Positions 5,225-48,160 of a stretch of 48,160 nt of DNA are shown in pieces (position 1 is the first letter of the stretch; each line of letters begins with the position of its first letter). Where the stretch lies: the UHGV virus genome UHGV-1333633; one strand, given 5' to 3'. The DNA comes from a virus. The notes under the pieces were generated by a model. The model did no database searches, was not told the origin of the DNA, and worked only from the letters and a program-made list of their open reading frames with translations. The position numbers were made by a program, and so were the translations under genes.

Positions 5225-5240
5225 TTGACGTGAGTGTCAA
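5225..5240 (-). promoter_or_regulatory. imperfect family palindrome TTGACGTGAGTGTCAA. Candidate minus promoter TTGACA-17-AATTAT directing transcription into the 5040..5200 non-coding gap.
   Basis: Read on the reverse complement. Confidence 0.35.
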
Positions 5241-19542: not shown

Positions 19543-19587
19543 CTCTCTGTCCTCCATTGTTGTCGATGTGGTGAACTCTATACCACC

Positions 19588-19603
19588 ATGACGCACTCGT
19601 CAA
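19588..19603 (-). promoter_or_regulatory. palindrome ATGACGCACTCGTCAA. Minus promoter TTGACG-17-TAGAGT for the 18686..19542 gene.
   Basis: Hexamers read on the reverse complement. Confidence 0.5.
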
Positions 19604-19643
19604 CACTATTTTAAATTTGACACGGGGAGGGTGGTGATGCACA

Positions 19644-19910
19644 ATGACGGGAGCGTCAATAACAACGGAGAACGGAGAGATGATTAACGATAACTACAGG
19701 GCGAGAGCAACCCGTGCAGAACAAGAATCGGCGAAATTGCGTGAAGAATTAGCAAAACGACCCAATTATGAGTGGTTTGTTGAACTGGTTCGCAAACATT
19801 TGAAACAAGAGGAAGGTGTTTGTCCTCAACGTTTGGCACATCAAGTTAAACAACTGAAAGAGGCGAGTACCAAACGTAGACAAAATCGGGAGTGTGCAGA
19901 AGATGAGTAA
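19644..19910 (+). CDS. hypothetical protein
   Basis: 88-aa ORF with RBS gggagggtgg. Confidence 0.4.
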   Translation: MTGASITTENGEMINDNYRARATRAEQESAKLREELAKRPNYEWFVELVRKHLKQEEGVCPQRLAHQVKQLKEASTKRRQNRECAEDE

Positions 19911-20434: not shown

Positions 20435-22103
20435 AATAATGCGACCATACCAGCGGGATGCAATTGATAATGTGTATGCAAACTGGGCTGTCGGTAAACG
20501 ATTCGTAGTGCTTGTCATGCCAACCGGAAGCGGGAAAGCGTCCGTACTATGTGAGATTGCTAGAATCGAAGCGGCGCGCGGTCAGCGCGTCTTGATTACT
20601 GCTCATCGTTCGGAATTAATATCACAGTTGAGTAATACGCTGGCGAGAAACGAACTTCGTCATAATATAATCGCAGCACATCCGACAATAAAATATTCAA
20701 TCAGACTACACATGGAAGACCACGGGCGAACGTATTATGACCCATCGGCGAAAATTACCGTGGCTTCTGTGCAGTCTGTTAAACAGTCTCATATTGATGA
20801 ACTCAAGGCTTATAAGAATAAACTAACAATTATAGGTGATGAGTTTCACCATTATACGCGCGACTCTAAAACGTGGGGTGGTGTTTTCACGCCTCTGGAT
20901 GAAGCTGGCGCGCAGGGTCTGGGACTTACAGCCACACCGTGCCGTGCCGATGGAAAAGGTTTGTCGCGTGAAACAGACGGGTACGGGGACGCACTCGTTA
21001 TCGGTCCGGGGATGCGTGACCTTATCGAAATGGGTTTTTTGGTTGATTACAAAATCTATTGTCCGCCATCTGACCTACATCTTGATAAAGTTAAAGTCAG
21101 CGCTACAACTGGCGATTACGCGGAAAAAGAACTCAAGGAGGAGATTGGTAAGTCTCATATCGTGGGGGACATTGTTCAACACTGGCTTAAATTTACCCCC
21201 GGTAAACGCGGTGTAACTTTCACCGTTGGTGTGGATATGGCGGAAGAAGTTGCCGATGCGTATCGCGCAAAAGGTGTACCTGCGGTAGCCGTATCGGGAC
21301 GCATGAAAGACAGTGAACGTATTCAGGCACTACGTGATATTGCCAGCGGAAAAGTTTTACAAATTGTAAACGACAGCGTTCTGACAGAGGGAACTGACGT
21401 AAGTTCACTCGAAGTGGTGTCATTTGCACGCCCTACACAAAGTTATGCGCTTTTTTGCCAGATGTTCGGACGAGGTACACGTACCAGTCCTGATACTGGA
21501 AAGACACATCTCACAGTTATCGACGCCGTGTCAAATGTCATGCGCCACGGTTTACCAGATGCACCGCGTGAGTGGAGTCTTGACCGTCGGGAGCGTCGCA
21601 CGGGTAAAAGTGAACCATCGACGGTGCGCGTGTGTACAGCTTGTGCAGCGGTGTACGAGCGGTTCCGTGACACATGCCCGGACTGCGGTGAGCCTGTACC
21701 AAAACCGGCAGACCGTTCCGGACCGATACAGGTAGACGGAGACCTGTACGAGCTCGACCAGGACGTACTTACACGGATGCGTAATGAGGTTGTGGGAGCA
21801 CGTGAGACACCTGAGGCGATGCGTGACAGACTGACTGCACAACACGTGCCACCCGCTGGGGTGATGGCTAATGTCAAGCGTCAAAGTGAGCGCCTGGAAG
21901 TGCTGGGACGACTGGATGGTCTGATGGCGACTATTGCCGGTTACTGGCGACACGACGGCATGAGCGACAAAGAAATATTTCGTAAATTTTTCCTGACTTA
22001 CCATATCGACTGGTTAAGTGCACAAGGCCTGAAAAAAGATGATGCACTAACACTTATGGAAAAAATACAAAATGACGTTGACGGACTCGTCAAAACGCAC
22101 TAA
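20430..22103 (+). CDS. SF2 DNA helicase (DEAD/DEAH box) with C-terminal zinc ribbon
   Basis: Motif I VMPTGSGKAS, motif II IGDEFHH, motif VI QMFGRGTR. C4 ribbon CTACAAV...CPDCG. Confidence 0.8.
   Translation: MLIMRPYQRDAIDNVYANWAVGKRFVVLVMPTGSGKASVLCEIARIEAARGQRVLITAHRSELISQLSNTLARNELRHNIIAAHPTIKYSIRLHMEDHGRTYYDPSAKITVASVQSVKQSHIDELKAYKNKLTIIGDEFHHYTRDSKTWGGVFTPLDEAGAQGLGLTATPCRADGKGLSRETDGYGDALVIGPGMRDLIEMGFLVDYKIYCPPSDLHLDKVKVSATTGDYAEKELKEEIGKSHIVGDIVQHWLKFTPGKRGVTFTVGVDMAEEVADAYRAKGVPAVAVSGRMKDSERIQALRDIASGKVLQIVNDSVLTEGTDVSSLEVVSFARPTQSYALFCQMFGRGTRTSPDTGKTHLTVIDAVSNVMRHGLPDAPREWSLDRRERRTGKSEPSTVRVCTACAAVYERFRDTCPDCGEPVPKPADRSGPIQVDGDLYELDQDVLTRMRNEVVGARETPEAMRDRLTAQHVPPAGVMANVKRQSERLEVLGRLDGLMATIAGYWRHDGMSDKEIFRKFFLTYHIDWLSAQGLKKDDALTLMEKIQNDVDGLVKTH
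22078..22093 (+). promoter_or_regulatory. palindrome TTGACGGACTCGTCAA. Plus promoter TTGACG-17-TAACAT for the VRR-NUC/TetR/primase block.
   Basis: Lies in the last codons of the helicase gene. RBS ggag lies before the 22138 ATG. Confidence 0.5.
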
Positions 22104-22137
22104 CATGTTCCCGATGTGAATGAATTAGGAGTGTATC

Positions 22138-22608
22138 ATGAACAACCTTCTCGAATGGCAACGTAAACACAGTATCACAGGGGAGGCATTGGCTGACCTT
22201 GTGACGATGGTGGGATTGGATGCCCCACGCTCAACCAAAGATACACCCGAAGCGCGCGTACAGGATGAGGCGCGGCTGCTGGCAAGTAAGATGGGCTGGC
22301 GACTTTTTCGCAATAATTGCGGTGCGTTAAAAGACGAAAATGGTCGAGTTGTACGTTACGGTCTGTGCAACGACTCTTCAACGATGAACAAGCGTATCAA
22401 GTCGAGCGACCTCATCGGTATCCGCCCCGTGGTTATCACGCCTGATATGGTCGGGTTAACCATTGGACAGTTTGTGGCGCGTGAGGTGAAGAAAGCTGGC
22501 TGGAAATACAGGGGTACGGAACATGAAGAGGCACAGCTTGCGTTTGGGACGCTCATTATCGGGCTGGGCGGTGATTTTAAATTCTGGAATGGTGAGGAGG
22601 AGTTGTGA
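22138..22608 (+). CDS. VRR-NUC domain nuclease
   Basis: DLIGIRP...EVKK PD-(D/E)xK core typical of VRR-NUC. 156 aa. Confidence 0.6.
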   Translation: MNNLLEWQRKHSITGEALADLVTMVGLDAPRSTKDTPEARVQDEARLLASKMGWRLFRNNCGALKDENGRVVRYGLCNDSSTMNKRIKSSDLIGIRPVVITPDMVGLTIGQFVAREVKKAGWKYRGTEHEEAQLAFGTLIIGLGGDFKFWNGEEEL

Positions 22609-22799
22609 TGACTGAGCAAGAACTCGAACGAAGATTGATTGCACTGGAAATAATGGAAGCGGTACTGCATATCCATGATTATTATTTTCCACGGCATGAG
22701 AAATGGTCGCCGGAATATCAATATGCAATCGAAGGTTTGCGAATAGCCAATAAATGTCAGGCTCTCATCGCACACGACCGGACACTATTGACCAGTTGA
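22605..22799 (+). CDS. hypothetical protein
   Basis: 64-aa ORF, ATGA-coupled to the VRR-NUC gene. Confidence 0.4.
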   Translation: MMTEQELERRLIALEIMEAVLHIHDYYFPRHEKWSPEYQYAIEGLRIANKCQALIAHDRTLLTS

Positions 22800-22811
22800 C
22801 CACACCGTCAA
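22796..22811 (+). promoter_or_regulatory. palindrome TTGACCACACCGTCAA. Plus promoter TTGACC-17-CATACT immediately upstream of the TetR-like gene.
   Basis: One mismatch to the family consensus. -10 at 22819..22824. Confidence 0.5.
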
Positions 22812-22853
22812 CCTGTGCCATACTGCAACAAATTACCTAATGGAACCGAAATT

Positions 22854-23132
22854 ATGAGCAAAGAACACATTCTGGAAGTAGCTTACACGATGGCACAGCG
22901 CGACGGCTTTGGTACTCTTACCCGCGATGGCGTGGCAGCCGAGGCTGGTGTGGCAATGGGCACCATCAACCATCACTGGGTCAGGATGGACGCACTTCGT
23001 GAGGCAGTGATGCAACGAGCAGTGGAAGAAGAAAACCTCGAACTGATTGGACAGGGTATTGCACTGGGTGACAACATCGCTAAGTCTGCACCACTGGAGC
23101 TACGTGCTCGCGCGTTGACCACCTTACTTTAA
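22854..23132 (+). CDS. TetR-family-like HTH transcriptional regulator (short, ~93 aa)
   Basis: ILEVAYTMAQRDGFGTLTRDGVAAEAGVAMGTINHHW fits the TetR_N HTH signature. Start taken at MSKEH, downstream of the promoter -10. Confidence 0.45.
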   Translation: MSKEHILEVAYTMAQRDGFGTLTRDGVAAEAGVAMGTINHHWVRMDALREAVMQRAVEEENLELIGQGIALGDNIAKSAPLELRARALTTLL

Positions 23133-23154
23133 TAACCAAAACGGAGAGACAGAG

Positions 23155-25512
23155 ATGACACATACGAATCCCCCTGTGCAGGGGGCTGATTCCCTGCACT
23201 TTATCGTCTGCAAAACAGTACCTTCACAGAAGAAACCAGGGCGCACGGAGAAGATGCCGTGTAATGCTGCTGGTGAAGTGGTCAGTCTGCACGTTGCGGA
23301 CCGCATGTCTCATGCTCAGGCGGTCGCGGCGGCTTCTGCACTGGGTGAGTCATATCGTCCCGCGGTCATTCTTACGGGTGATGGTCGTTTCTGCGTGGAT
23401 ATCGACGGTGCACTACAGGATGATAACACCTGGTCACCGCTCGCGCTGGAATTATGCACAACTTTTGCCGGTTGTTACGTGGAAGTGAGCAACAGCGGTA
23501 AAGGCTTGCACATTTTTGGTTACAGTCCGTCCATCCCTGAGCACAGCTGTAAAAATGTTCCACTGCACATCGAACTGTACACGTCCGACCGTTTCATCTG
23601 TCTGGGAAGTGGTGCACGGGGTGACATGATGTTTAACGCATCCGCACCGCTCAACGCCACGGTTGCCCGGTATTTCCCGCAGACCGAGCAAGTTGCAGCG
23701 GTGGAGTGGTCAACAACTCACGCCGAAGGTTCGTGTCCGATTGAGGACGACGCGAAACTCATCGAAAAAGCCTGTTCGAGTAAAGGTGGTGTCGCGGCTG
23801 TTTTCGGTGGTAAAGCAACATTTAAAGACCTGTGGACGCGTAACGTCGAGGTACTGAGTGATGCGTATCCGGATGAGGACCGCGAGTATGACGGGTCGAG
23901 CGCCGATGCCGCACTGGCCCAACATTTATCGTTCTGGACCGGTGGTAACTGTGAACGTATCGAACGCCTGATGCGTCTGTCTGCGCTGGCGCGTCCTAAA
24001 TGGGACAGTCACAAGTCGTACATGCGACGCACCATTCTGGGTGCTTGCGCACGTCAGACAACCTACTACAGCGTCGGCGCACCGATTGAACTGGTGACTC
24101 CCGCGCAGGTTGTCGAGACGGGTGCACCGGTTATCCGAAGCGGGTATCAATTCATTGGAGGCTCACAGCTTGTTGACCATTTCAAAGGCTGCGTGTATGT
24201 GGCAGACAGTCATCGCGTACTGACCCCAAATGGTCAAATGCTGAAATCGGAACAATTCGACGTTATGTATGGTGGTTACGCCTTCGCGTTAGACGACAGT
24301 AACGAAAAAACAACAAAGTCTGCCTTTGAAGCCTTCACACGGAGTCAGTGCATTATGTTCCCGAAGGTTGACCGCTCGACATTTCGTCCGGACTTGTCAC
24401 AGGGTGCCATCATTGAAGAAGATGGTTTGCGTCATGTCAACGTATACGTGCCGGTCACGGTGGCGAGCGTCCCGGGCGATGTGACACCTTTCCTCACTCA
24501 TCTGGCTAAACTTTTACCCGTCGAGCGCGACCGTGAGATTCTGTTGTCATACATGGCAGCGTGTGTGCAGTACAAGGGGACTAAATTTAAATGGGCACCA
24601 TTGCTCCAGGGTGTTGAGGGTAACGGTAAAACACTGTTCACACTGTGCGTAATGGAAGCGGTAGGTTCACGTTACAGCCACATGCCGCCAGCGCAGGAGA
24701 TTGGCGAGAAGTTCAACGCGTGGCTGTTCGATAAAATATTTATCGGCGTGGAAGATATTTACGTTCCGGAGCAGAAACTCGAACTGATTGAAACGCTCAA
24801 GCCGATGATTACCGGTGAGTACCTCGCTAAACGTGCGATGCAGCAGGACCAGGTAATGCACCGCCTGTGTGCTAACTTCATGTTTAACAGTAACCACAAG
24901 AACGCCGTGCGCAAGACGGCTAATGACCGCCGGTTCGCTATTTTCTACACCGCGCAGCAGGAGCATATCGACATCGTGCGCGACGGTATGGGTGGAGACT
25001 ACTTCCCCAACCTGTATGACTGGCTCAAACGTGGTGGTGGATTTGCAGCCGTGACGCATTATCTGGAGAACTACGCCATTCCCGCACAGTTTAACCCGGC
25101 GACACATTGTCAGCGTGCGCCAGAGACCAGCAGTACTCACGAGGCTGTGACAGCATCACTTGGCAGCGTCGAACAGGAAATCATGGAAGCAATTGACGAG
25201 GGTCGCCAGGGCTTTGCGGGTGGTTGGGTGAGCAGTAAGGCACTGGACAACCTGTTACGCCAGATGCGTGCCGACCGCGCTGTACCGGTGGGTAAACGTC
25301 GTGACATGATGCGTCAACTAGGTTACGACTGGCACCCGGCGCTCAAGGATGGACGCGTGAATAACGTGATAATGATTGACGGTGGTAAGCCACGGTTGTA
25401 CATCAAGATTGGACACATTCACGCTAACCTCACAAATGCAGCAGACGTGGCGCGCCATTACGCGGCGGCACAGGGTGATACGAGTACTATTGCCTTTGCG
25501 GAAACTAAATAA
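23155..25512 (+). CDS. primase-polymerase + SF3 helicase replication protein (P4 alpha / D5-like)
   Basis: Prim-pol motif VEVSNSGKGLHIFG. Walker A GVEGNGKT and Walker B FIGVEDI in the C-terminal half. 785 aa. Confidence 0.7.
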   Translation: MTHTNPPVQGADSLHFIVCKTVPSQKKPGRTEKMPCNAAGEVVSLHVADRMSHAQAVAAASALGESYRPAVILTGDGRFCVDIDGALQDDNTWSPLALELCTTFAGCYVEVSNSGKGLHIFGYSPSIPEHSCKNVPLHIELYTSDRFICLGSGARGDMMFNASAPLNATVARYFPQTEQVAAVEWSTTHAEGSCPIEDDAKLIEKACSSKGGVAAVFGGKATFKDLWTRNVEVLSDAYPDEDREYDGSSADAALAQHLSFWTGGNCERIERLMRLSALARPKWDSHKSYMRRTILGACARQTTYYSVGAPIELVTPAQVVETGAPVIRSGYQFIGGSQLVDHFKGCVYVADSHRVLTPNGQMLKSEQFDVMYGGYAFALDDSNEKTTKSAFEAFTRSQCIMFPKVDRSTFRPDLSQGAIIEEDGLRHVNVYVPVTVASVPGDVTPFLTHLAKLLPVERDREILLSYMAACVQYKGTKFKWAPLLQGVEGNGKTLFTLCVMEAVGSRYSHMPPAQEIGEKFNAWLFDKIFIGVEDIYVPEQKLELIETLKPMITGEYLAKRAMQQDQVMHRLCANFMFNSNHKNAVRKTANDRRFAIFYTAQQEHIDIVRDGMGGDYFPNLYDWLKRGGGFAAVTHYLENYAIPAQFNPATHCQRAPETSSTHEAVTASLGSVEQEIMEAIDEGRQGFAGGWVSSKALDNLLRQMRADRAVPVGKRRDMMRQLGYDWHPALKDGRVNNVIMIDGGKPRLYIKIGHIHANLTNAADVARHYAAAQGDTSTIAFAETK

Positions 25513-25532
25513 GCCCTTCGGGGCTTTTTTTT
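25511..25532 (+). terminator. intrinsic terminator agccc-ttcg-gggct + T8
   Basis: Read directly after the primase stop. Confidence 0.7.
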
Positions 25533-25542
25533 GCAATTAGTA

Positions 25543-25558
25543 TTGACGGACTCGTCAA
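25543..25558 (+). promoter_or_regulatory. palindrome TTGACGGACTCGTCAA. Plus promoter TTGACG-17-TATCTT.
   Basis: Identical to the 22078 site. Drives 25608 onward. Confidence 0.55.
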
Positions 25559-25607
25559 GGTGGGTTATCTTCAACTCATCGGAACAACAATTAAGGAGAC
25601 TAAACAA

Positions 25608-25956: not shown

Positions 25957-26253
25957 ATGATTAAATATTTACCACTTGTAGCGCTCCTGGCGGGCGCTCA
26001 GGTTAACGCAGCTGTTACTGCTGAGACAAATGAATCACGGGTTGCTAACCTGCTCTTTAACGGTTGCAGCGCTCAACGTGCACAGATGGGCGTGCAGGAA
26101 ATGATTAAACGGGCTAACCCGGGCGGTAATCCTGCAGCGACCGACCTTATCATCAAAGGTTACAAGTTCGGCATTGATTACCCGAATGTTGGTTGTAACC
26201 AGTTCTTTACGGTTGTTATCGACCAGTTAGTTAAAAGCCGGAGCAAAGTGTAA
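25957..26253 (+). CDS. small secreted protein (signal peptide, 2 Cys)
   Basis: MIKYLPLVALLAGAQVNAAV is a Sec signal with an AxA site. Confidence 0.5.
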   Translation: MIKYLPLVALLAGAQVNAAVTAETNESRVANLLFNGCSAQRAQMGVQEMIKRANPGGNPAATDLIIKGYKFGIDYPNVGCNQFFTVVIDQLVKSRSKV

Positions 26254-27395
26254 TGAGTATACTGACTGACGAGCAATTACTGACAGACGTGACTGCGGGA
26301 ATGAGTGGTCATGCCATTGCGAAAAAGTACGGCATGAGCCCCGGCAATATTAACCGCCGCATCAAACGTCTCGGTGCGCGCGGGCTGGGTCATGGCGGTA
26401 ATGTGTCTCGCTTTGTGCCGGACGGTTACAAGGTGAAAGGTACATCGTCACTGGTGAAGGAGGACGGGACTGTAGCGCTACAATGGGTCAAGACTGATGT
26501 GGACGCCGAGCGCCAGTTGAAAATGATGCAGGAAGCGATTGTGGCGCTTACAGAGTGCTTATCCCCACTAGAGGAAATTAATTTAATATCCCGTGATGAG
26601 GATAGCACTCTCCTGAACATGTACACAGTAACAGATGCACACATTGGTATGTTGGCATGTGAAGAAGAGGGTGGAGACGATTACGATACCAACATTGCAG
26701 AACATCTCATATCGTCGTGGTTCAAATCAGCGACAGCATTGGCACCCAACGCAACAGAGTGTCTCATCAACCTTCAGGGGGATTTCCTGCACTTCGACGG
26801 CCTGAAGGCGGTTACACCAACATCCGGGCATATTCTCGACTCTGATACGCGTTTCTTCAAAGTGGTCCAGACTGCTATCCGTGTGATTAAGCGAGCCGTG
26901 AATATGTGTCTGGAGAAGCATCGGAAAGTGACGCTGCTAATCGCTACGGGCAACCACGACCTCGCGTCATCCGTGTGGTTGCGAGAGATGTTTAAAGAGG
27001 TGTATTGCGATAATCCCCGTGTGACCATTGTAGACGAACAGAGCCCCTACTACGCAATCGAATTCGGTAAAGTAATGATTGGCGTACATCACGGGCACTG
27101 TTCCAGGATGGAAAAGCTGGACGCAGTATTTGCCAGTAAGTTCCGGGAGATTTACGGTCGTACTAAGTTTGGCTACCTACACATGGGACACTATCATCAT
27201 CGGAAAGTAGCAGAGAGCAACATGTTCATCACTGAGATGCATCAAACTCTGGCAGCTAAAGACGAGTATTCAAGTAACGGAGGTTACGACTCTGGAAGAA
27301 GCGCTACCGTCATAACATATCATCGAGACTACGGTGAGATTGGTAGAATATCAATTCCCGTAGAGATGATTAAGGACCAGTATGGACTGGAATAA
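26253..27395 (+). CDS. calcineurin-like metallophosphoesterase with N-terminal HTH (sigma-70 region-4-like)
   Basis: Phosphoesterase motifs TDAHIG, GDFLHFD, GNHD, HHGH, GHYHH. N-terminus GMSGHAIAKKYGMSPGNINRRIKRL. Confidence 0.6.
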   Translation: MSILTDEQLLTDVTAGMSGHAIAKKYGMSPGNINRRIKRLGARGLGHGGNVSRFVPDGYKVKGTSSLVKEDGTVALQWVKTDVDAERQLKMMQEAIVALTECLSPLEEINLISRDEDSTLLNMYTVTDAHIGMLACEEEGGDDYDTNIAEHLISSWFKSATALAPNATECLINLQGDFLHFDGLKAVTPTSGHILDSDTRFFKVVQTAIRVIKRAVNMCLEKHRKVTLLIATGNHDLASSVWLREMFKEVYCDNPRVTIVDEQSPYYAIEFGKVMIGVHHGHCSRMEKLDAVFASKFREIYGRTKFGYLHMGHYHHRKVAESNMFITEMHQTLAAKDEYSSNGGYDSGRSATVITYHRDYGEIGRISIPVEMIKDQYGLE

Positions 27396-28351: not shown

Positions 28352-28624
28352 ACCCCGAAAATGGTAAATCATCAGGGTGGAGAATTTACTTTCACAATCA
28401 GCAGCTTACGCGCATAACCGAAAACCCCGTACATTTTCGCTATATTCTCTCTTCTCTCTTGTTACCGTTTGTATGTTGTCTATATACATTCTTTTACTAT
28501 CTTACTACTATACTAATTATTATTTTATAAGGGTATAAGGGTAATAAGTAGTATAGTACTGAAAACTAAAGAGTTTTTCGTACCCCGATGAAGTACCCCG
28601 AACGAGTTTCAACGGGGTATGTGG
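28352..28624. repeat. 273-bp regulatory module, copy A (near-identical to 40515..40787), upstream of the terminase operon
   Basis: A few mismatches over 273 bp. Contains the AT-rich core tataagggtataagggtaataag and the hairpin taccccg-N12-cggggta (28594..28619). Confidence 0.85.
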
Positions 28625-28681: not shown

Positions 28682-28918
28682 ATGGCAATCAACCTGCACA
28701 CTGGGAAACCTGACCGGAGAAGTAAGTTTCGGAGGACTAAACCGAATCCGAAACAACGCGCATTCTGTGAACTTGTTGCCAGGGGTGAAACATATCGGGA
28801 AGCCTACAGGAAGGTGTATGGGTCCATTAGTTCGAGTGGGTTGAATACCGTACTATCCAGCCGTAGAATTAAATCATTCATCAGGACTCTCAAGGAGTGT
28901 CAACATGGCAAGGGCTAA
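28682..28918 (+). CDS. small HTH protein (terminase-small-like N-terminal motif)
   Basis: KQRAFCELVARGETYREAYRKVY resembles the Terminase_2 N-terminal helix. 78 aa. Confidence 0.4.
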   Translation: MAINLHTGKPDRRSKFRRTKPNPKQRAFCELVARGETYREAYRKVYGSISSSGLNTVLSSRRIKSFIRTLKECQHGKG

Positions 28919-32765: not shown

Positions 32766-32781
32766 CTGACGAGGCCGTCAA
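32766..32781 (-). promoter_or_regulatory. palindrome CTGACGAGGCCGTCAA. Minus promoter TTGACG-17-TAGAGT.
   Basis: Read on the reverse complement. Lies 3 nt before the plus-strand ATG at 32784, so it is not a plus promoter. Confidence 0.5.
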
Positions 32782-34003: not shown

Positions 34004-34019
34004 CTGACGAACTCGTCAA
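34004..34019 (-). promoter_or_regulatory. palindrome CTGACGAACTCGTCAA. Minus promoter TTGACG-18-TATACT.
   Basis: Read on the reverse complement. Confidence 0.5.
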
Positions 34020-34718: not shown

Positions 34719-34734
34719 CTGACGGACTCGTCAA
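34719..34734 (-). promoter_or_regulatory. palindrome CTGACGGACTCGTCAA. Minus promoter TTGACG-17-CATAGT for the DUF3310 cluster.
   Basis: Read on the reverse complement. Confidence 0.5.
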
Positions 34735-40305: not shown

Positions 40306-40321
40306 TTGACGAATCCGTCAA
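40306..40321 (-). promoter_or_regulatory. palindrome TTGACGAATCCGTCAA. Minus promoter TTGACG-17-TACACT for the AP2 gene.
   Basis: Read on the reverse complement. RBS gagagagaggg. Confidence 0.5.
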
Positions 40322-40343: not shown

Positions 40344-40500
40344 TAATTTCATTCCGATCAAAAAGTGAACAACTTTGTAGTACAATATAATTACAGTGTA
40401 CTACCGTATAATTTCATTCCGATCAAAAAGTGAACAACTTTGTAGTACAATATAATTACAGTGTACTACCGTATAATTTCATTCCGATCAAAAAGTGAAC
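40344..40500. repeat. 65-bp direct tandem repeat, 2.4 copies. Each unit carries the 8-bp inverted repeat GTAGTACA-N12-TGTACTAC and a cgTATAAT element.
   Basis: Period 65 (40344, 40409, 40474). Palindromes at 40377..40404 and 40442..40469. Confidence 0.85.
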
Positions 40501-40514
40501 GATTACCCGAAAAC

Positions 40515-40787
40515 ACCCCGAAAATGGTAAATCATCAGGGTGGAGAATTTACTTTCACAATCAGCAGCTTACGCGCATAACCGAAAACCCCGTACATTTT
40601 CGCTATATTCTCTCTTCTCTCTTGTTACCGTTTGTATGTTGTCTATATACATTCTTTTACTATCTTACTACTATACTAATTATTATTTTATAAGGGTATA
40701 AGGGTAATAAGTAGTATAGTACTGAAAGTTAAAGAGTTTTTGATACCCCGATGAAGTACCCCGAACGAGTTTTAACGGGGTGTGTGG
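40515..40787. repeat. 273-bp regulatory module, copy B, upstream of the neck/tail operon
   Basis: Near-identical to 28352..28624. Confidence 0.85.
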
Positions 40788-40836: not shown

Positions 40837-41340
40837 ATGTCAGTCAACATTAAAGCGCTACAGCAAGCCAAACAGGCAATACGTTCGAAACTGGAGCAAT
40901 ACGCTAAAGCCGGTCAGAAGACTGTGACCGTCGGTATCCATTCGGACGCAGGTGAACATCCTGACTCCGGTATGACAAATGCCCAGCTTGGCGCATTGCT
41001 GAATTACGGTAACCCGAATAACAAGCTATACGGTAATCCCGCACCTATTCCACCGCGCCCCTGGCTGATACCCGGTGTGCAAAGCGGTAAACAGGACATC
41101 GTGGATACCATTGCTCATGGTATAGCTAATGATTTACCGCTTGACCGGGTGCTGGAACAAGTGGGCGCGTTTGCGGCTGGTGCGGTTCAACAATACATGA
41201 CTGACCTCGACACTCCTCCGAACAGTCCGTACACTATCGCTCGGAAGGGTTCCAGTTCGCCGCTTATTGATACTGGCGCTCTACGGGCGAGCGTAACGTA
41301 CAAGGTCACCAACGAAAAACCTGATGAGGGTATCTTATGA
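40837..41340 (+). CDS. neck/virion morphogenesis protein
   Basis: 167 aa. First gene after repeat copy B. Confidence 0.4.
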   Translation: MSVNIKALQQAKQAIRSKLEQYAKAGQKTVTVGIHSDAGEHPDSGMTNAQLGALLNYGNPNNKLYGNPAPIPPRPWLIPGVQSGKQDIVDTIAHGIANDLPLDRVLEQVGAFAAGAVQQYMTDLDTPPNSPYTIARKGSSSPLIDTGALRASVTYKVTNEKPDEGIL

Positions 41341-45448: not shown

Positions 45449-46165
45449 TCAAATCAAACCTTCTTCAGATAATTTTCTGACAATCCACATTTCACCTTCG
45501 GCATAGAACATAGGTTGTGAGAACCCATTCTCTGTCTCCCGCATTATCCCGTACCCCTTATCGATGAACCATTGCTGAAATACACGTCCACGCTTCACGG
45601 AGCGATTGTAGACGTCCATTGAGGTTAACTGCTTGTTTAACCATATCGCTGATTGTCCGAACTTCTGGGCGATCTGAGTGGCGTTATAGAGACCATTGCG
45701 TTCTACAATCCGGTCGTAGACGTCTGCTTTTGGTGTCATCTCCTCATTCTCTAGTGCAAGACGTTCTTTCTCTTTCTCGCTTTCCAGCAGCGCTTCAAGT
45801 GCTTGAATATAGTTTTGTGGTAGTGCGGGTGTATTCACCCGTGATTCCAGCTCTTGCCAACGCTTGATTATCTTCATTCGTAATTGAGCGTTATACCCTG
45901 ACACCAGGCAGATGGTGTTATCTTTATCCAGCCGGTACTCCCATGCGTTTGGGTTGGTGGTATCATACTGAATGCACGTAACCCCATGATTCGTAACGTA
46001 ACTCAAATTTGAGTTACGAACATAATCTTCATCGTGACCACCATGTAGAGCGCAGAGCATTGAGCGAATGTCTCTGCAAACATTGTCGTGACGCTTCTCA
46101 ACTAGCGTCGCAATCTCGCGGCTAGACATGGTTAGTTCCGATTTTGTGTTTACTAAATCGTTCAT
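45449..46165 (-). CDS. Rha-family regulatory protein with KilAC (antirepressor C-terminal) domain, paralog 1 (intact)
   Basis: N-terminus TMSSREIATLVEKRHDNV (Phage_pRha). C-terminus YNATQIAQKFGQSAIWLNKQL... (KilAC). Confidence 0.75.
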   Translation of the reverse strand: MNDLVNTKSELTMSSREIATLVEKRHDNVCRDIRSMLCALHGGHDEDYVRNSNLSYVTNHGVTCIQYDTTNPNAWEYRLDKDNTICLVSGYNAQLRMKIIKRWQELESRVNTPALPQNYIQALEALLESEKEKERLALENEEMTPKADVYDRIVERNGLYNATQIAQKFGQSAIWLNKQLTSMDVYNRSVKRGRVFQQWFIDKGYGIMRETENGFSQPMFYAEGEMWIVRKLSEEGLI

Positions 46166-46285: not shown

Positions 46286-46429
46286 TTATTTTCTTTTACT
46301 CCGAATGTGAAAGTCTGCTTTATCCATCATGTCTTTGCGCCAGCAAACACCGGTGCCCATATACGCCGGGTCGTCACTTTCCGCATAACCAAATTCGTTT
46401 TCATGGTATGTGCAAATCGTGTCGGTCTG
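46286..46429 (-). pseudogene. 3' fragment of the small exported-protein gene (paralog of 46709..46963)
   Basis: Translates to QTDTICTYHENEFGYAESDDPAYMGTGVCWRKDMMDKADFHIRSKRK*, about 90% identical to the C-terminus of the 46709 ORF. No N-terminus. Confidence 0.5.
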
Positions 46430-46590
46430 CCTCCGTTCGACGGCATGACCTTTTCCTCAAAAGTGAGGGAAAGGTCATGCGCCATTTTCGATATGTCGCG
46501 TCGTACATTATCGTGTTCCTTCCCTGTCAATTCCGCAATCTCACGGCTGGACATCGTTTGTACATCGCCGACAGTCATTAAGTCATTCAT
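46327..46590 (-). CDS. truncated Rha N-terminal-domain ORF (recombination remnant)
   Basis: MNDLMTVGDVQTMSSREIAELTGKEHDNVRRDISKM, then unrelated sequence. Contains the inverted repeat 46444..46479. Confidence 0.4.
   Translation of the reverse strand: MNDLMTVGDVQTMSSREIAELTGKEHDNVRRDISKMAHDLSLTFEEKVMPSNGGRPTRFAHTMKTNLVMRKVTTRRIWAPVFAGAKT
46444..46479. repeat. 16-bp-arm inverted repeat catgaccttttcctca-aaag-tgagggaaaggtcatg at the junction inside the truncated Rha ORF
   Basis: Read directly. Confidence 0.7.
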
Positions 46591-46708
46591 ATTTCGTATC
46601 TCCTCTCTTGTTCGTGTGAGTGTAGTTTCGATGAAAATCACGACCCGTTCAAATCGATTTGTTTATGATCACGATTAACGATGTAATTGATGACAATTGA
46701 CCTCTTAG

Positions 46709-46984: not shown

Positions 46985-47674
46985 TCAAATCAAACCTTCT
47001 TCAGATAATTTTCTGACAATCCACATTTCACCTTCGGCATAGAACATAGGTTGTGAGAACCCATTCTCTGTCTCCCGCATTATCCCGTACCCCTTATCGA
47101 TGAACCACTGTTGAAATACACGTCCGCGCTTCACGGAGCGATTGTAGACGTCCATCGAGGCTAGTTGTTTGTTTAGCCATATCGCTGATTGTCCGAACTT
47201 CTGTGCGATTTGAGTGGCGTTATAGAGACCATTGCGTTCTACGATTCGGTCGTAGACGTCTGCTTTTGGTGCTGCTATCGATAGTTTCTCCTGCGCCAAA
47301 AGCTTCTGTTCGTACTCGGTAGCCCATGCTCTCGCGGCTTCTGCTGGATTTGTGAAGTCTGGTAGTGTCGGTTTGTTGGCGTTCTCAAGTTCTTGCCAAC
47401 GGTTAATCAACTTCTGACGCAAGGGAATGTTATAGCCAGTCATTAACAGTAGTGTTTGATTCTTGGTTAGCAGATACTCGGATGTATACCCTCTATTATC
47501 TGTAAGTGACTGAAATTCCTCATGGTCCAAATTTGGACCATCTTTTAACTGCTCGATAATTGTGCGAATATCGCGAATAATGTGTTTATGTTCCTTCCCA
47601 GTCAATTCCGCAATCTCACGGCTGGACATCGTTTGTACATCGCCGACAGTCATTAAGCCATTCATATCTCGCAT
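46985..47674 (-). CDS. Rha-family / KilAC antirepressor-like protein, paralog 2 (intact)
   Basis: MSSREIAELTGKEHKHIIRDIR N-terminus. C-terminal 100 aa identical to paralog 1. Confidence 0.75.
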   Translation of the reverse strand: MRDMNGLMTVGDVQTMSSREIAELTGKEHKHIIRDIRTIIEQLKDGPNLDHEEFQSLTDNRGYTSEYLLTKNQTLLLMTGYNIPLRQKLINRWQELENANKPTLPDFTNPAEAARAWATEYEQKLLAQEKLSIAAPKADVYDRIVERNGLYNATQIAQKFGQSAIWLNKQLASMDVYNRSVKRGRVFQQWFIDKGYGIMRETENGFSQPMFYAEGEMWIVRKLSEEGLI

Positions 47675-47977: not shown

Positions 47978-47993
47978 TTGACGACGCCGTCAA
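47978..47993 (-). promoter_or_regulatory. palindrome TTGACGACGCCGTCAA. Minus promoter TTGACG-17-TACAGT for the 47932 gene.
   Basis: Read on the reverse complement. RBS agagagg. Confidence 0.5.
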
Positions 47994-47996
47994 CAC

Positions 47997-48160
47997 TTAA
48001 ATCAAACCTTCTTCGGATAATTTTCTGACAATCCACATTTCACCTTCGGCATAGAACATAGGTTGTGAGAACCCATTCTCTGTCTCCCGCATTATCCCGT
48101 ACCCCTTATCGATGAACCACTGTTGAAATACACGTCCGCGCTTCACGGAGCGATTGTAGA
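47997..48160 (-). CDS. 3' end of Rha/KilAC paralog 3. The gene continues across the window junction into 1..421.
   Basis: Identical to 46985..47148. Stop at 47997..47999. The window end joins the window start in perfect register with paralog 2. Confidence 0.55.
   Translation of the reverse strand, partial: YNRSVKRGRVFQQWFIDKGYGIMRETENGFSQPMFYAEGEMWIVRKLSEEGLI

What the first reader, a model, noticed from the sequence alone, without database searches (positions are those of the whole stretch)
22796..23132. Phage-encoded TetR-like HTH protein sits directly behind one of the palindrome promoters: candidate autoregulated master repressor
The ~93-aa ORF has a TetR_N-type helix-turn-helix (GFGTLTRDGVAAEAGVAMGTINHHW) but only a short C-terminal region. 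TetR operators are ~15-16 bp palindromes, the same geometry as TTGACG-N4-CGTCAA. The gene's own promoter (TTGACC-17-CATACT) contains a copy, which suggests negative autoregulation and control of the whole site family. A TetR-type repressor is not a standard component of lytic phage early regulation.
Basis: inference. Interest (0 to 1): 0.7.

Follow-up and report, generated by a model that had tools for sequence, protein, structure and literature searches.

The report
Truncated TetR-type repressor of phage early promoters
A Klebsiella phage encodes a half-length TetR-type DNA-binding protein behind a promoter that carries the 16-bp palindrome found in nearly all its early promoters, and comparison with related phages makes this protein the best candidate for switching those promoters off, although no binding has been shown.

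Summary
Window 22854-23132 (+) encodes a 92-aa protein that matches Pfam TetR_N above threshold. It sits behind a sigma-70-type promoter (TTGACC-17-TGn-CATACT) whose -35 and spacer form a one-mismatch copy of TTGACG-N4-CGTCAA (12 sites in the window, 0.13 expected).

The window is a Jedunavirus, a Klebsiella myophage closest to JustaPhage, KpV52 and FZ14. GenBank already annotates this gene as a "TetR family regulator", so the HTH call is not new.

New points:
- The protein is a truncated "mini-TetR". It keeps the N-terminal half of the TetR fold and lacks the canonical dimerisation and ligand core.
- It belongs to a large phage family that is almost always encoded next to an NrS-1-like primase-polymerase.
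- The palindromes occupy -35 plus spacer, and once -10/+1, of early and replication promoters. Both half-sites are invariant across 11 genomes while the centre drifts.
- The palindrome family tracks the mini-TetR across five phage lineages and is absent from a relative that lacks it. No other recognisable DNA-binding protein shares that distribution.

Best reading (about 0.55): a Cro-like, autoregulated shut-off repressor of early promoters. Binding, oligomeric state and the sign of regulation are untested.

The parts
22796..22811 (.). Operator-like palindrome TTGACCACACCGTCAA (1 mismatch to TTGACG-N4-CGTCAA). It covers the -35 hexamer and the first 10 nt of the spacer of the mini-TetR promoter.
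   Evidence: TTGAC and GTC cores invariant in 10 genomes (A3)
22796..22824 (+). Sigma-70-type promoter of the mini-TetR gene: -35 TTGACC (22796-22801), 17-nt spacer, TG at 22816-22817, -10 CATACT (22819-22824).
   Evidence: 9 of 12 consensus matches, TG before the -10; conserved in A3
22854..23132 (+). Mini-TetR CDS, 92 aa plus stop: TetR_N HTH (residues 6-52) and three short C-terminal helices.
23155..25512 (+). NrS-1-like primase-polymerase (HBD + DUF5906), 22 bp downstream of the mini-TetR gene and probably co-transcribed. This gene pair is conserved across divergent phages.
25511..25526 (+). Intrinsic terminator-like hairpin plus T-run that ends the mini-TetR/primase unit.
   Evidence: conserved in A5
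25543..25571 (+). Next palindrome promoter: TTGACGGACTCGTCAA-N7-TATCTT. In the orthologous site of 11 genomes TTGACG and TCGTC are invariant while the centre varies.
22078..22106 (+). Palindrome promoter TTGACGGACTCGTCAA-N7-TAACAT, inside the 3' end of the helicase gene and heading the nuclease gene at 22138.
19575..19603 (-). Leftward palindrome promoter (palindrome 19588-19603, -10 TAGAGT) heading the RecT-like/exonuclease operon.
19617..19659 (+). Rightward promoter TTGACA-17-CACAAT with palindrome ATGACGGGAGCGTCAA (19644-19659) overlapping -10/+1. Here the palindrome is an operator position that is not a -35 element.
   Evidence: conserved in L005-L007
17538..17553 (-). Palindrome at the -35/spacer of a leftward promoter (-10 TAGTAT) heading the Gp2.5-like SSB / DNA polymerase operon.
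32766..32781 (-). Palindrome at the -35/spacer of a leftward promoter (-10 TAGAGT) heading a small-gene island inside the late region. It abuts the start of the rightward head-morphogenesis gene.
34004..34019 (-). Palindrome at the -35/spacer of a leftward promoter (18-nt spacer, -10 TATACT) heading small early genes.
34719..34734 (-). Palindrome at the -35/spacer of a leftward promoter (-10 CATAGT) heading the DUF3310 small-gene island.
40306..40321 (-). Palindrome at the -35/spacer of a leftward promoter (-10 TACACT).
47978..47993 (-). Palindrome at the -35/spacer of a leftward promoter (-10 TACAGT) heading the Rha/Ant paralogue operon.
5225..5240 (-). Palindrome TTGACGTGAGTGTCAA between the tail-fibre and baseplate-spike genes. 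Read leftward it is TTGACA-17-AATTAT. The position is conserved in CP-T1 and AAM22.

Best explanation
The 92-aa product is a truncated TetR-family DNA-binding protein ("mini-TetR"). It is made from an early sigma-70 promoter and binds the 16-bp palindrome TTGACG-N4-CGTCAA as two copies, one per half-site.

The palindrome covers the -35 hexamer and the upstream spacer of about ten early and replication promoters, and the -10/+1 of an eleventh. Occupancy would therefore exclude host RNA polymerase. The result would be a Cro-like shut-off of early transcription, including the protein's own promoter, whose site is always imperfect.

Shutting off the leftward early promoters embedded among the rightward late operons would also clear the way for late transcription.

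Shown here: the fold, the promoter architecture, conservation of both half-sites, and the match between the distribution of the protein and that of the sites.

Inferred: binding, two-copy stoichiometry, repression rather than activation, and timing.

For: 2. Sites are non-random and are promoters.
- 12 sites against 0.13 expected.
- 10 sites have a 4-5/6 -10 hexamer 17-18 nt from the palindromic -35, on the strand of the next gene, and 5225 reads the same way leftward; the remaining site, 19644, overlaps the -10/+1 of a separate promoter.

3. Selection acts on both half-sites. In the orthologous post-primase promoter of 11 genomes, TTGACG and TCGTC are invariant while the central bases change (A5). 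The same holds for the mini-TetR promoter in 10 genomes (A3). A spacer sequence has no known role for sigma-70 (established knowledge), so a symmetric binder is implied.

4. Distribution across phages. TGAC-N6-GTCA is 10-17 times enriched in the window, KpV52, AAM22, CP-T1, PEi21 and Scuro, all of which encode the protein.
- Yersinia phage PY100 lacks the protein. It has 1 site (0.5 expected) despite 155 TTGAC pentamers.
- Scuro has a different morphogenesis module. It shares with the window, besides short weak matches in a few tail/baseplate genes, only the replication module that includes the mini-TetR.

5. Other DNA-binding candidates fail this test. The 380-aa winged-helix protein and the three Rha/Ant proteins are absent from most palindrome-bearing genomes. 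The winged-helix protein is present in PY100, which has no palindrome family.

6. Partial covariation. Scuro's sites are TTGACA-N4-TGTCA, and its recognition helix differs at several positions (HGTVLRYY against MGTINHHW).

7. Geometry precedent. The TetR-family regulator RutR binds a 16-bp box, TTGACCAnnTGGTCAA (PMC2475637).
Against: - There is no binding or expression data for any member. No functional study was found in the searchable literature.
- The canonical TetR dimer interface (C-terminal helices) is absent. I could not model a dimer or a DNA complex, so two-copy binding to a palindrome is an assumption.
- Recognition-helix residues vary between the window, CP-T1, PEi21 and P0199 (MGTINHHW, TGTVSFAF, TGIVSYYY, LALVNYYY) while the TGAC core of the site stays the same. 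Covariation is therefore not clean.
- Stenotrophomonas B2 and Burkholderia BcepB1A encode divergent homologues, and Agrobacterium OLIVR4 a remote one, yet none shows a TGAC palindrome family. CP-T1 and SppYZU01 lack a full site at their own gene.
- Synteny with the primase is broader than the palindrome family. This could point to a replication-linked core function.
- The left half-site is also explained by the -35 consensus.
Confidence: 0.55

Rival explanations
1. The mini-TetR is primarily a replication-module protein. It would control the primase-polymerase operon or the initiation step, as the P4 cnr gene (between epsilon and alpha, upstream of the P4 primase gene) controls copy number. 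The genome-wide palindromes would then be read by something else, or only secondarily by this protein.
For: - The gene lies immediately, or within one or two genes, upstream of an NrS-1-like primase-polymerase in L003, L005-L010, AAM22, PEi21, Scuro, SppYZU01 and Stenotrophomonas B2.
- Agrobacterium OLIVR4 has a 78-aa remote homologue in the same slot (hhalign probability 89.7%).
- The linkage persists in B2, where there is no TGAC palindrome family.
- In CP-T1 a 12 x 15-bp repeat array follows the gene (PMC3391216 Table 3).
- cnr lies between epsilon and alpha in P4-like elements and controls plasmid copy number (PMC8628076).
Against: - The window has no iteron cluster near the gene.
- The palindromes are dispersed one per promoter rather than clustered like an origin.
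- A site sits at the gene's own promoter in most lineages.
- No other recognisable DNA-binding protein matches the distribution of the palindromes.
- No homology to Cnr was tested or known to me.
Confidence: 0.2
2. The protein does bind the palindromes but acts positively or architecturally, for example by recruiting or stabilising RNA polymerase at these promoters or countering host silencing, rather than repressing.
For: - The same site and distribution evidence as for the main explanation applies.
- The -10 hexamers are only 4-5 of 6 matches, so help from a factor is conceivable.
Against: - The site is centred near -27.5 and covers the -35 hexamer. The promoters already have TTGAC -35 elements and optimal 17-bp spacers, which is the arrangement of occlusion rather than activation (established promoter knowledge).
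- One site lies at -10/+1, a classic repressor position.
- The very first transcription of the infecting genome must occur without the protein.
Confidence: 0.1
3. The protein targets the host. As a DNA-binding-domain-only TetR it could occupy operators of a host TetR-family regulator (a RutR/NemR-type 6-N4-6 box) without responding to ligand. The phage palindromes would then be unrelated promoter features read by another factor.
For: - The RutR box TTGACCAnnTGGTCAA resembles the phage site, and the left half of the site at 22796 (TTGACCA) matches it exactly.
- Comeau et al. suggested co-option of cellular regulators.
Against: - The protein is not RutR-like beyond the generic HTH: it gives no RutR NCBIfam hit, and all its NCBIfam hits fall far below their cut-offs.
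- The family was found only in phage records or phage-like contigs wherever context could be read, and no full-length match was found on plasmids.
- The phage consensus differs from the RutR box at positions 6-7 and 10-11.
- This reading does not explain the conserved palindrome at the protein's own promoter.
Confidence: 0.07
4. The palindromes are not protein operators. They would act as short RNA hairpins in read-through transcripts, or be a by-product of -35 elements on both strands.
For: - Each site can form a 5-6-bp stem with a 4-nt loop. The terminator scan picks two of them up as weak hairpins.
- Several sites abut start codons of late genes.
Against: - The fixed register relative to the -10 hexamer (17 nt) holds in five lineages.
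- Only one strand has a -10 at most sites.
- The loop sequence is unconstrained and the stem is short.
- Rfam finds nothing.
Confidence: 0.03

Closest known systems
TetR-family repressors with 16-bp 6-N4-6 operators, e.g. E. coli RutR (box TTGACCAnnTGGTCAA)
   Same: - Same TetR_N helix-turn-helix fold.
- Operator of the same length and symmetry, with an almost identical outer half-site TTGAC.
- The operator overlaps promoters.
   Different: - 92 aa instead of about 200.
- It lacks the ligand-binding and dimerisation core, so it has no obvious inducer response or canonical dimer.
- It is not a sequence member of RutR or any named NCBIfam equivalog.
- It is phage-encoded, with a regulon of phage early promoters.
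Lambda Cro (small HTH protein that turns down the early promoters PR and PL during lytic growth and is itself made from PR)
   Same: A small HTH-only protein made from an early promoter. Its palindromic operators overlap early promoters, including its own. The predicted role is early shut-off. Cro facts are established knowledge; the role here is inferred.
   Different: - Unrelated fold family: TetR_N, not Cro/cI.
- About 12 dispersed single operators instead of two tripartite operator clusters.
- No partner cI repressor or lysogeny module is recognisable.
Mycobacteriophage D29 Gp36 (small MerR-like repressor of a lytic phage; PMC12266134)
   Same: A lytic phage carrying a cut-down bacterial-type regulator that represses its own early and late genes.
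   Different: - Gp36 is MerR-type and binds GC-rich direct repeats at few sites.
- It has been demonstrated experimentally, which the mini-TetR has not.
P4 Cnr (small protein whose gene lies between epsilon and alpha, upstream of the P4 primase gene; controls plasmid copy number; PMC8628076)
   Same: The position of a small gene directly upstream of a P4/D5-type primase gene.
   Different: - No homology was tested.
- Cnr acts on replication, not on promoters.
- The window has no iteron-type origin next to the gene.

Membership tests
TetR family of transcriptional regulators (TFR) | N-terminal three-helix HTH DNA-binding domain (Pfam TetR_N) | tested here: met
   - PF00440: 32.2 bits against a cut-off of 24, residues 6-52.
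- phmmer against the PDB hits only TetR-family chains.
TetR family of transcriptional regulators (TFR) | C-terminal regulatory core of about 120-150 residues (helices 5 to 9/10) forming the ligand pocket | tested here: not met
   - The protein is 92 aa. Only three short helices (62-70, 74-77, 81-91) follow helix 4.
- All of the roughly 140 close homologues are 92-93 aa, and most family representatives are 90-116 aa.
TetR family of transcriptional regulators (TFR) | Homodimer through the C-terminal helices (four-helix bundle) | tested here: not met
TetR family of transcriptional regulators (TFR) | Binds a palindromic operator that overlaps the promoter of its own or an adjacent gene | tested here: inconclusive
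   A 16-bp palindrome overlaps its own -35 and spacer, and this is conserved in 10 genomes.
TetR family of transcriptional regulators (TFR) | Ligand-induced release from DNA | not testable with these tools
   No pocket-forming domain is present, so the feature is probably absent. This needs biochemistry.
RutR (NCBIfam equivalog TIGR03613 / PRK15008) | Full-length match above the curated cut-off | tested here: not met
   The window protein gives no RutR hit. The two-domain relative P0155 scores 18.7 bits against a cut-off of 368.
Phage mini-TetR family defined here (phrog_8723 in part) | Protein of about 90-116 aa with TetR_N plus the C-terminal motif L.IIAQGLA.G...A..AP..L+..A | tested here: met
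   - phrog_8723 E=2.3e-38.
- 1339 cluster representatives at E<=1e-3, with the listed best hits mostly covering nearly the full query.
- Alignment A1.
Phage mini-TetR family defined here (phrog_8723 in part) | Encoded next to an NrS-1-like primase-polymerase (HBD + DUF5906) in a phage replication module | tested here: met
   The window gene ends 22 bp before the primase gene. The same pairing occurs in L003, L005-L010, PEi21, Scuro, SppYZU01, AAM22 and Stenotrophomonas B2.
Cro-like early shut-off repressors (functional class, not a homology family) | Small HTH protein made from an early promoter, with operators overlapping early promoters including its own | tested here: met
   By sequence position only.
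Cro-like early shut-off repressors (functional class, not a homology family) | Demonstrated repression of early transcription during infection | not testable with these tools
   No transcriptome or genetic data were found for any Jedunavirus or relative.
Origin-binding initiator or iteron system | Clustered repeated binding sites at an origin near the replication genes | tested here: not met
   The sites are dispersed singly at promoters across the 48-kb window, and only 19588 and 19644 are paired. There is no tandem array near the gene.

The most novel reading that the evidence does not exclude
The mini-TetR and its operators on every early promoter would form a complete, non-canonical immunity circuit. 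A ligand-blind, half-length TetR would hold the whole early programme off and allow a carrier or pseudolysogenic state in phages that have no cI, integrase, transposase or partition genes.

This would explain why Vibrio phage CP-T1, which carries the same protein and the same sites, is reported as temperate although its genome has none of the three known lysogeny systems (PMC3391216).

It would also define a new way for a TetR-fold protein to recognise a palindrome without the canonical dimer interface.
Probability: 0.1. Interest if true: 0.8.

Novelty: new variant of a known kind. Interest (0 to 1): 0.5.

Why it matters
Jedunaviruses are among the Klebsiella phages being developed for therapy, and their transcription programme has not been studied.

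If the model holds:
- One 92-aa protein and one 16-bp site would explain how the early programme is shut off, including the leftward early promoters that fire head-on into the late operons.
- It would be a compact, orthogonal repressor/operator pair for engineering.
- It would be a clear case of a bacterial regulator fold stripped to its DNA-binding half and re-used by viruses.
- It would give a function to a phage protein family with more than a thousand cluster representatives that databases currently label only "TetR family".

Tried and rejected
Searches that gave nothing useful:
With the single distant proteins P0155 and P0124 it found nothing in viral contigs.
- A second homologous-protein search with the family profile listed almost only the same close homologues.
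- Short metagenomic contigs for P0129, P0131 and P0124 gave no usable context.
- Rfam and tRNA scans of the window found nothing.
- tblastn against plasmids gave only four partial hits to ordinary TetR genes.

Alternative palindrome binders considered and rejected:
- The 380-aa winged-helix protein (26253-27395) is absent from CP-T1, AAM22, PEi21 and Scuro. It is present in PY100, which has no palindrome family.
- The three Rha/KilAC proteins have a match only in PEi21 among the relatives tested.

Other ideas considered and rejected:
- Bidirectional promoters: only one strand has a -10 at most sites.
- GC skew as an origin marker: it simply follows gene orientation.
- Palindrome families in Stenotrophomonas B2, BcepB1A and OLIVR4: none found. 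BcepB1A has a single TTGCAAaccCTGCAA at its own promoter.

Full report
**What the window is.** Megablast of 22000-24000 finds 71 phage records, almost all Klebsiella myophages of the genus Jedunavirus (KpV52 98%, FZ14 98%, JD001 91%). The protein of interest is 100% identical to that of Klebsiella phage vB_KpnM_JustaPhage. In many of these GenBank records the gene is already called a "TetR family transcriptional regulator". Comeau et al. 2012 noted "tetR-like cellular transcriptional regulators" in the related phages phiPLPE, CP-T1 and 138 without assigning a role (PMC3391216). Recognising a TetR-type HTH is therefore not new.

**Checking the observation.**
- The CDS is 22854-23132 (+), ATG start, 92 aa.
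- Pfam TetR_N matches residues 6-52 at 32.2 bits against a cut-off of 24.
- The palindrome TTGACCACACCGTCAA lies at 22796-22811.
- With at most one mismatch, TTGACG-N4-CGTCAA occurs 12 times in the window against 0.13 expected. No shuffle of 100 reached 12.
- An independent consensus scan calls TTGACC(22796)-17-CATACT(22824) with a TG extended -10. It also calls the palindrome promoters at 19603(-), 22078(+) and 25543(+), and a promoter at 19617(+).

**What the palindromes are.**
- After orienting each site, 10 sites have a 4-5/6 -10 hexamer 17 nt (once 18 nt) from the palindromic -35 hexamer, on the strand of the next gene. Site 5225 reads the same way leftward, though no gene follows it.
- The remaining site (19644-19659) has ATGACG on its left. 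It overlaps the -10/+1 of a separate promoter, TTGACA(19617)-17-CACAAT, and this arrangement is conserved in three metagenomic relatives. The palindrome is therefore not just a decorated -35 element.
- Mapping KpV52 genes onto the window shows that these promoters head the replication and recombination operons: SSB/polymerase, RecT-like/exonuclease, helicase, nuclease, mini-TetR/primase, and the genes after the primase.
- They also head the leftward islands of small genes embedded among the rightward structural operons.
- Site 5225 lies between two rightward tail genes but reads as a leftward promoter. No site reads as a rightward promoter ahead of a late operon.

**What the protein is.**
- AlphaFold2 with a 52-sequence alignment gives seven helices at pLDDT 97.3.
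- The protein is therefore a TetR cut after roughly helix 6/7. The DNA-binding domain and the start of the core are kept. The pocket and the helices that normally make the dimer are gone.
- No NCBIfam model reaches its cut-off.
- An exhaustive HMMER scan of 1.8 billion cluster representatives finds 1339 relatives at E<=1e-3. Most of the listed best hits are 90-116 aa and match nearly the full query, including a C-terminal motif around IIAQGLA.G...A..AP..LK.
- A subgroup of about 165 aa carries an extra N-terminal HTH domain (model pLDDT 95.9).
- Among isolated phages the family occurs in Klebsiella, Pantoea, Acinetobacter, Vibrio, Edwardsiella, Alteromonas, Shewanella, Iodobacter and Burkholderia phages. 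No full-length match was found on plasmids.

**Synteny.** In every contig long enough to judge, the gene lies in a replication module of the form helicase, small genes, nuclease, (methylase), mini-TetR, NrS-1-like primase-polymerase.
- This holds for relatives at 40-50% identity and for Pantoea AAM22, Edwardsiella PEi21, Acinetobacter Scuro and Shewanella SppYZU01.
- It also holds for Stenotrophomonas B2, which has a very divergent 127-aa version.
- Agrobacterium OLIVR4 has a 78-aa remote homologue in the same slot (hhalign probability 89.7%).
- In CP-T1 and BcepB1A the two genes are a few kilobases apart.

**Does the protein go with the palindromes?** TGAC-N6-GTCA counts against first-order Markov simulations:

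| Genome | Sites observed | Expected |
|---|---|---|
| Window | 15 | 1.3 |
| KpV52 | 14 | 1.2 |
| AAM22 | 13 | 1.1 |
| PEi21 | 13 | 0.8 |
| CP-T1 | 9 | 0.8 |
| Scuro | 5 | 0.4 |

- In each of these genomes nearly all sites sit in the same register (-35 plus spacer, 16-18 nt, mostly 17, to a -10).
- Yersinia phage PY100 belongs to the same dwarf-myovirus group as CP-T1 but has no mini-TetR. It has 1 site (0.5 expected) despite 155 TTGAC pentamers.
- Scuro has a different morphogenesis module. Apart from short, weak matches in a few tail/baseplate genes, it shares with the window only SSB, exonuclease, the RecT-like protein, helicase, nuclease, mini-TetR and primase.
- Other recognisable DNA-binding proteins in the window do not fit. 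The 380-aa winged-helix protein and the three Rha/KilAC proteins are missing from most palindrome-bearing genomes. The winged-helix protein is present in palindrome-free PY100.
- In the orthologous promoter after the primase terminator, TTGACG and TCGTC are invariant in 11 genomes while the central bases vary (A5).
- In the mini-TetR promoter, TTGAC, GTC and the -10 are invariant in 10 genomes while the upstream sequence is unrelated (A3).
- The protein's own site is imperfect in every one of these genomes (TTGACC.., ..AGTCAA, ..CGTCGA, TTGACA..). This would fit weaker self-repression, but that is inference.
- Scuro's sites are TTGACA-N4-TGTCA and its recognition helix differs (HGTVLRYY against MGTINHHW), a hint of covariation.

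**Weaknesses.**
- Covariation is not clean. CP-T1, PEi21 and P0199 change several recognition-helix residues while keeping the TGAC core.
- B2 and BcepB1A, and OLIVR4 in the 14 kb examined, show no TGAC palindrome family.
- CP-T1 and SppYZU01 have only a half-site at their own gene.
- Because the canonical dimer interface is missing, I cannot say how two copies would cooperate on DNA. The tools gave no multimer model and no coordinates.
- The left half-site is also what sigma-70 wants. The argument for a symmetric binder therefore rests on the right half-site and on site 19644.

**Most likely mechanism.** The promoters already have near-consensus -35 elements and optimal 17-bp spacers. The site is centred near -27.5, or at -10/+1 in one case. 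A bound protein should therefore occlude RNA polymerase.

The protein is made from one of these promoters. The simplest circuit is a Cro-like negative feedback that turns the early programme down as the protein accumulates. It would also silence the leftward early promoters that would otherwise collide with rightward late transcription.

The 16-bp RutR box shows that a TetR-type HTH pair can read exactly this geometry. D29 Gp36 is a precedent for a cut-down bacterial regulator repressing genes in a lytic phage.

I put this reading at about 0.55. The main rival (about 0.2) is a replication-linked role suggested by the primase synteny, by analogy with P4 cnr. A reasonable synthesis, which is inference, has two steps. 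The ancestral job was autoregulation of the primase operon. The Jedunavirus/CP-T1/PEi21/Scuro clade then spread the operator to all early promoters.

**Verdict.** The HTH call is already in the databases. The link between protein and sites, the truncated architecture, the size of the family and the primase synteny appear not to have been described in the literature I could search. I rate it a new variant of a known kind, of moderate interest, and directly testable.

Noticed in passing
window 28352-28624 and 40515-40787: A 273-nt direct repeat, 98% identical. Each copy lies just upstream of a late operon (terminase small subunit at 28905; tail-completion gene at 40837). The repeat is AT-rich with several short palindromes. 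It may be a shared late promoter or leader, or a replication or packaging element.
   Followed up: partly
window 40344-40500: A perfect 65-bp tandem repeat (2.4 copies) immediately to the right of the palindrome promoter at 40306.
   Followed up: no
window 45449-46165, 46327-46641, 46985-47674, and window ends 1-162 / 47995-48160: Three paralogous Rha/KilAC (Ant-like) genes in the leftward operon driven from 47978. The window ends repeat these sequences, so the window appears to be a circular permutation that cuts through a further paralogue.
   Followed up: partly
window 5225-5240; CP-T1 L013:38145; AAM22 L014:24859: A palindrome promoter pointing leftward, antisense to the tail operon, between the tail-fibre or hub gene and the baseplate-spike gene. 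The position is conserved in three lineages and no obvious ORF lies downstream. It may drive an antisense or small RNA.
   Followed up: partly
window 32766-32781 and 34719-34734; PEi21 L017:4735 and 6675; CP-T1 L013:23361: Leftward early palindrome promoters abut, within 1-3 nt, or even contain the start codon of rightward late head genes. Late mRNAs therefore carry the palindrome as a 5-6-bp hairpin at their ribosome-binding region.
   Followed up: no
CP-T1 L013:12969-13158: A 12 x 15-bp direct repeat array lies just downstream of the CP-T1 mini-TetR gene and its neighbouring palindrome (12722). Comeau et al. took it for a possible attachment site, but it looks like an iteron-type origin (PMC3391216 Table 3).
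   Followed up: no
Acinetobacter phage Scuro L016:21424-21924; Shewanella SppYZU01 L018:8066-8566; proteins P0131-P0266: A subfamily of about 165 aa has an extra, shorter HTH domain fused in front of the mini-TetR unit. AF2 models it confidently (pLDDT 95.9). Its operators in Scuro are still symmetric, so the role of the extra domain is unclear.
   Followed up: partly
window 26253-27395: A 380-aa protein with an N-terminal winged-helix match (HTH_24, just above threshold). GenBank records label it variously as a DNA repair exonuclease or a wHTH protein. It has a 42%-identical homologue in Yersinia phage PY100.
   Followed up: partly
Burkholderia phage BcepB1A L019:9255-9269: The promoter of its 98-aa mini-TetR (gp59) carries a different palindrome, TTGCAAaccCTGCAA, from the -35 into the spacer. 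No second copy occurs in the 19 kb examined. This may be a lineage with a changed operator.
   Followed up: partly
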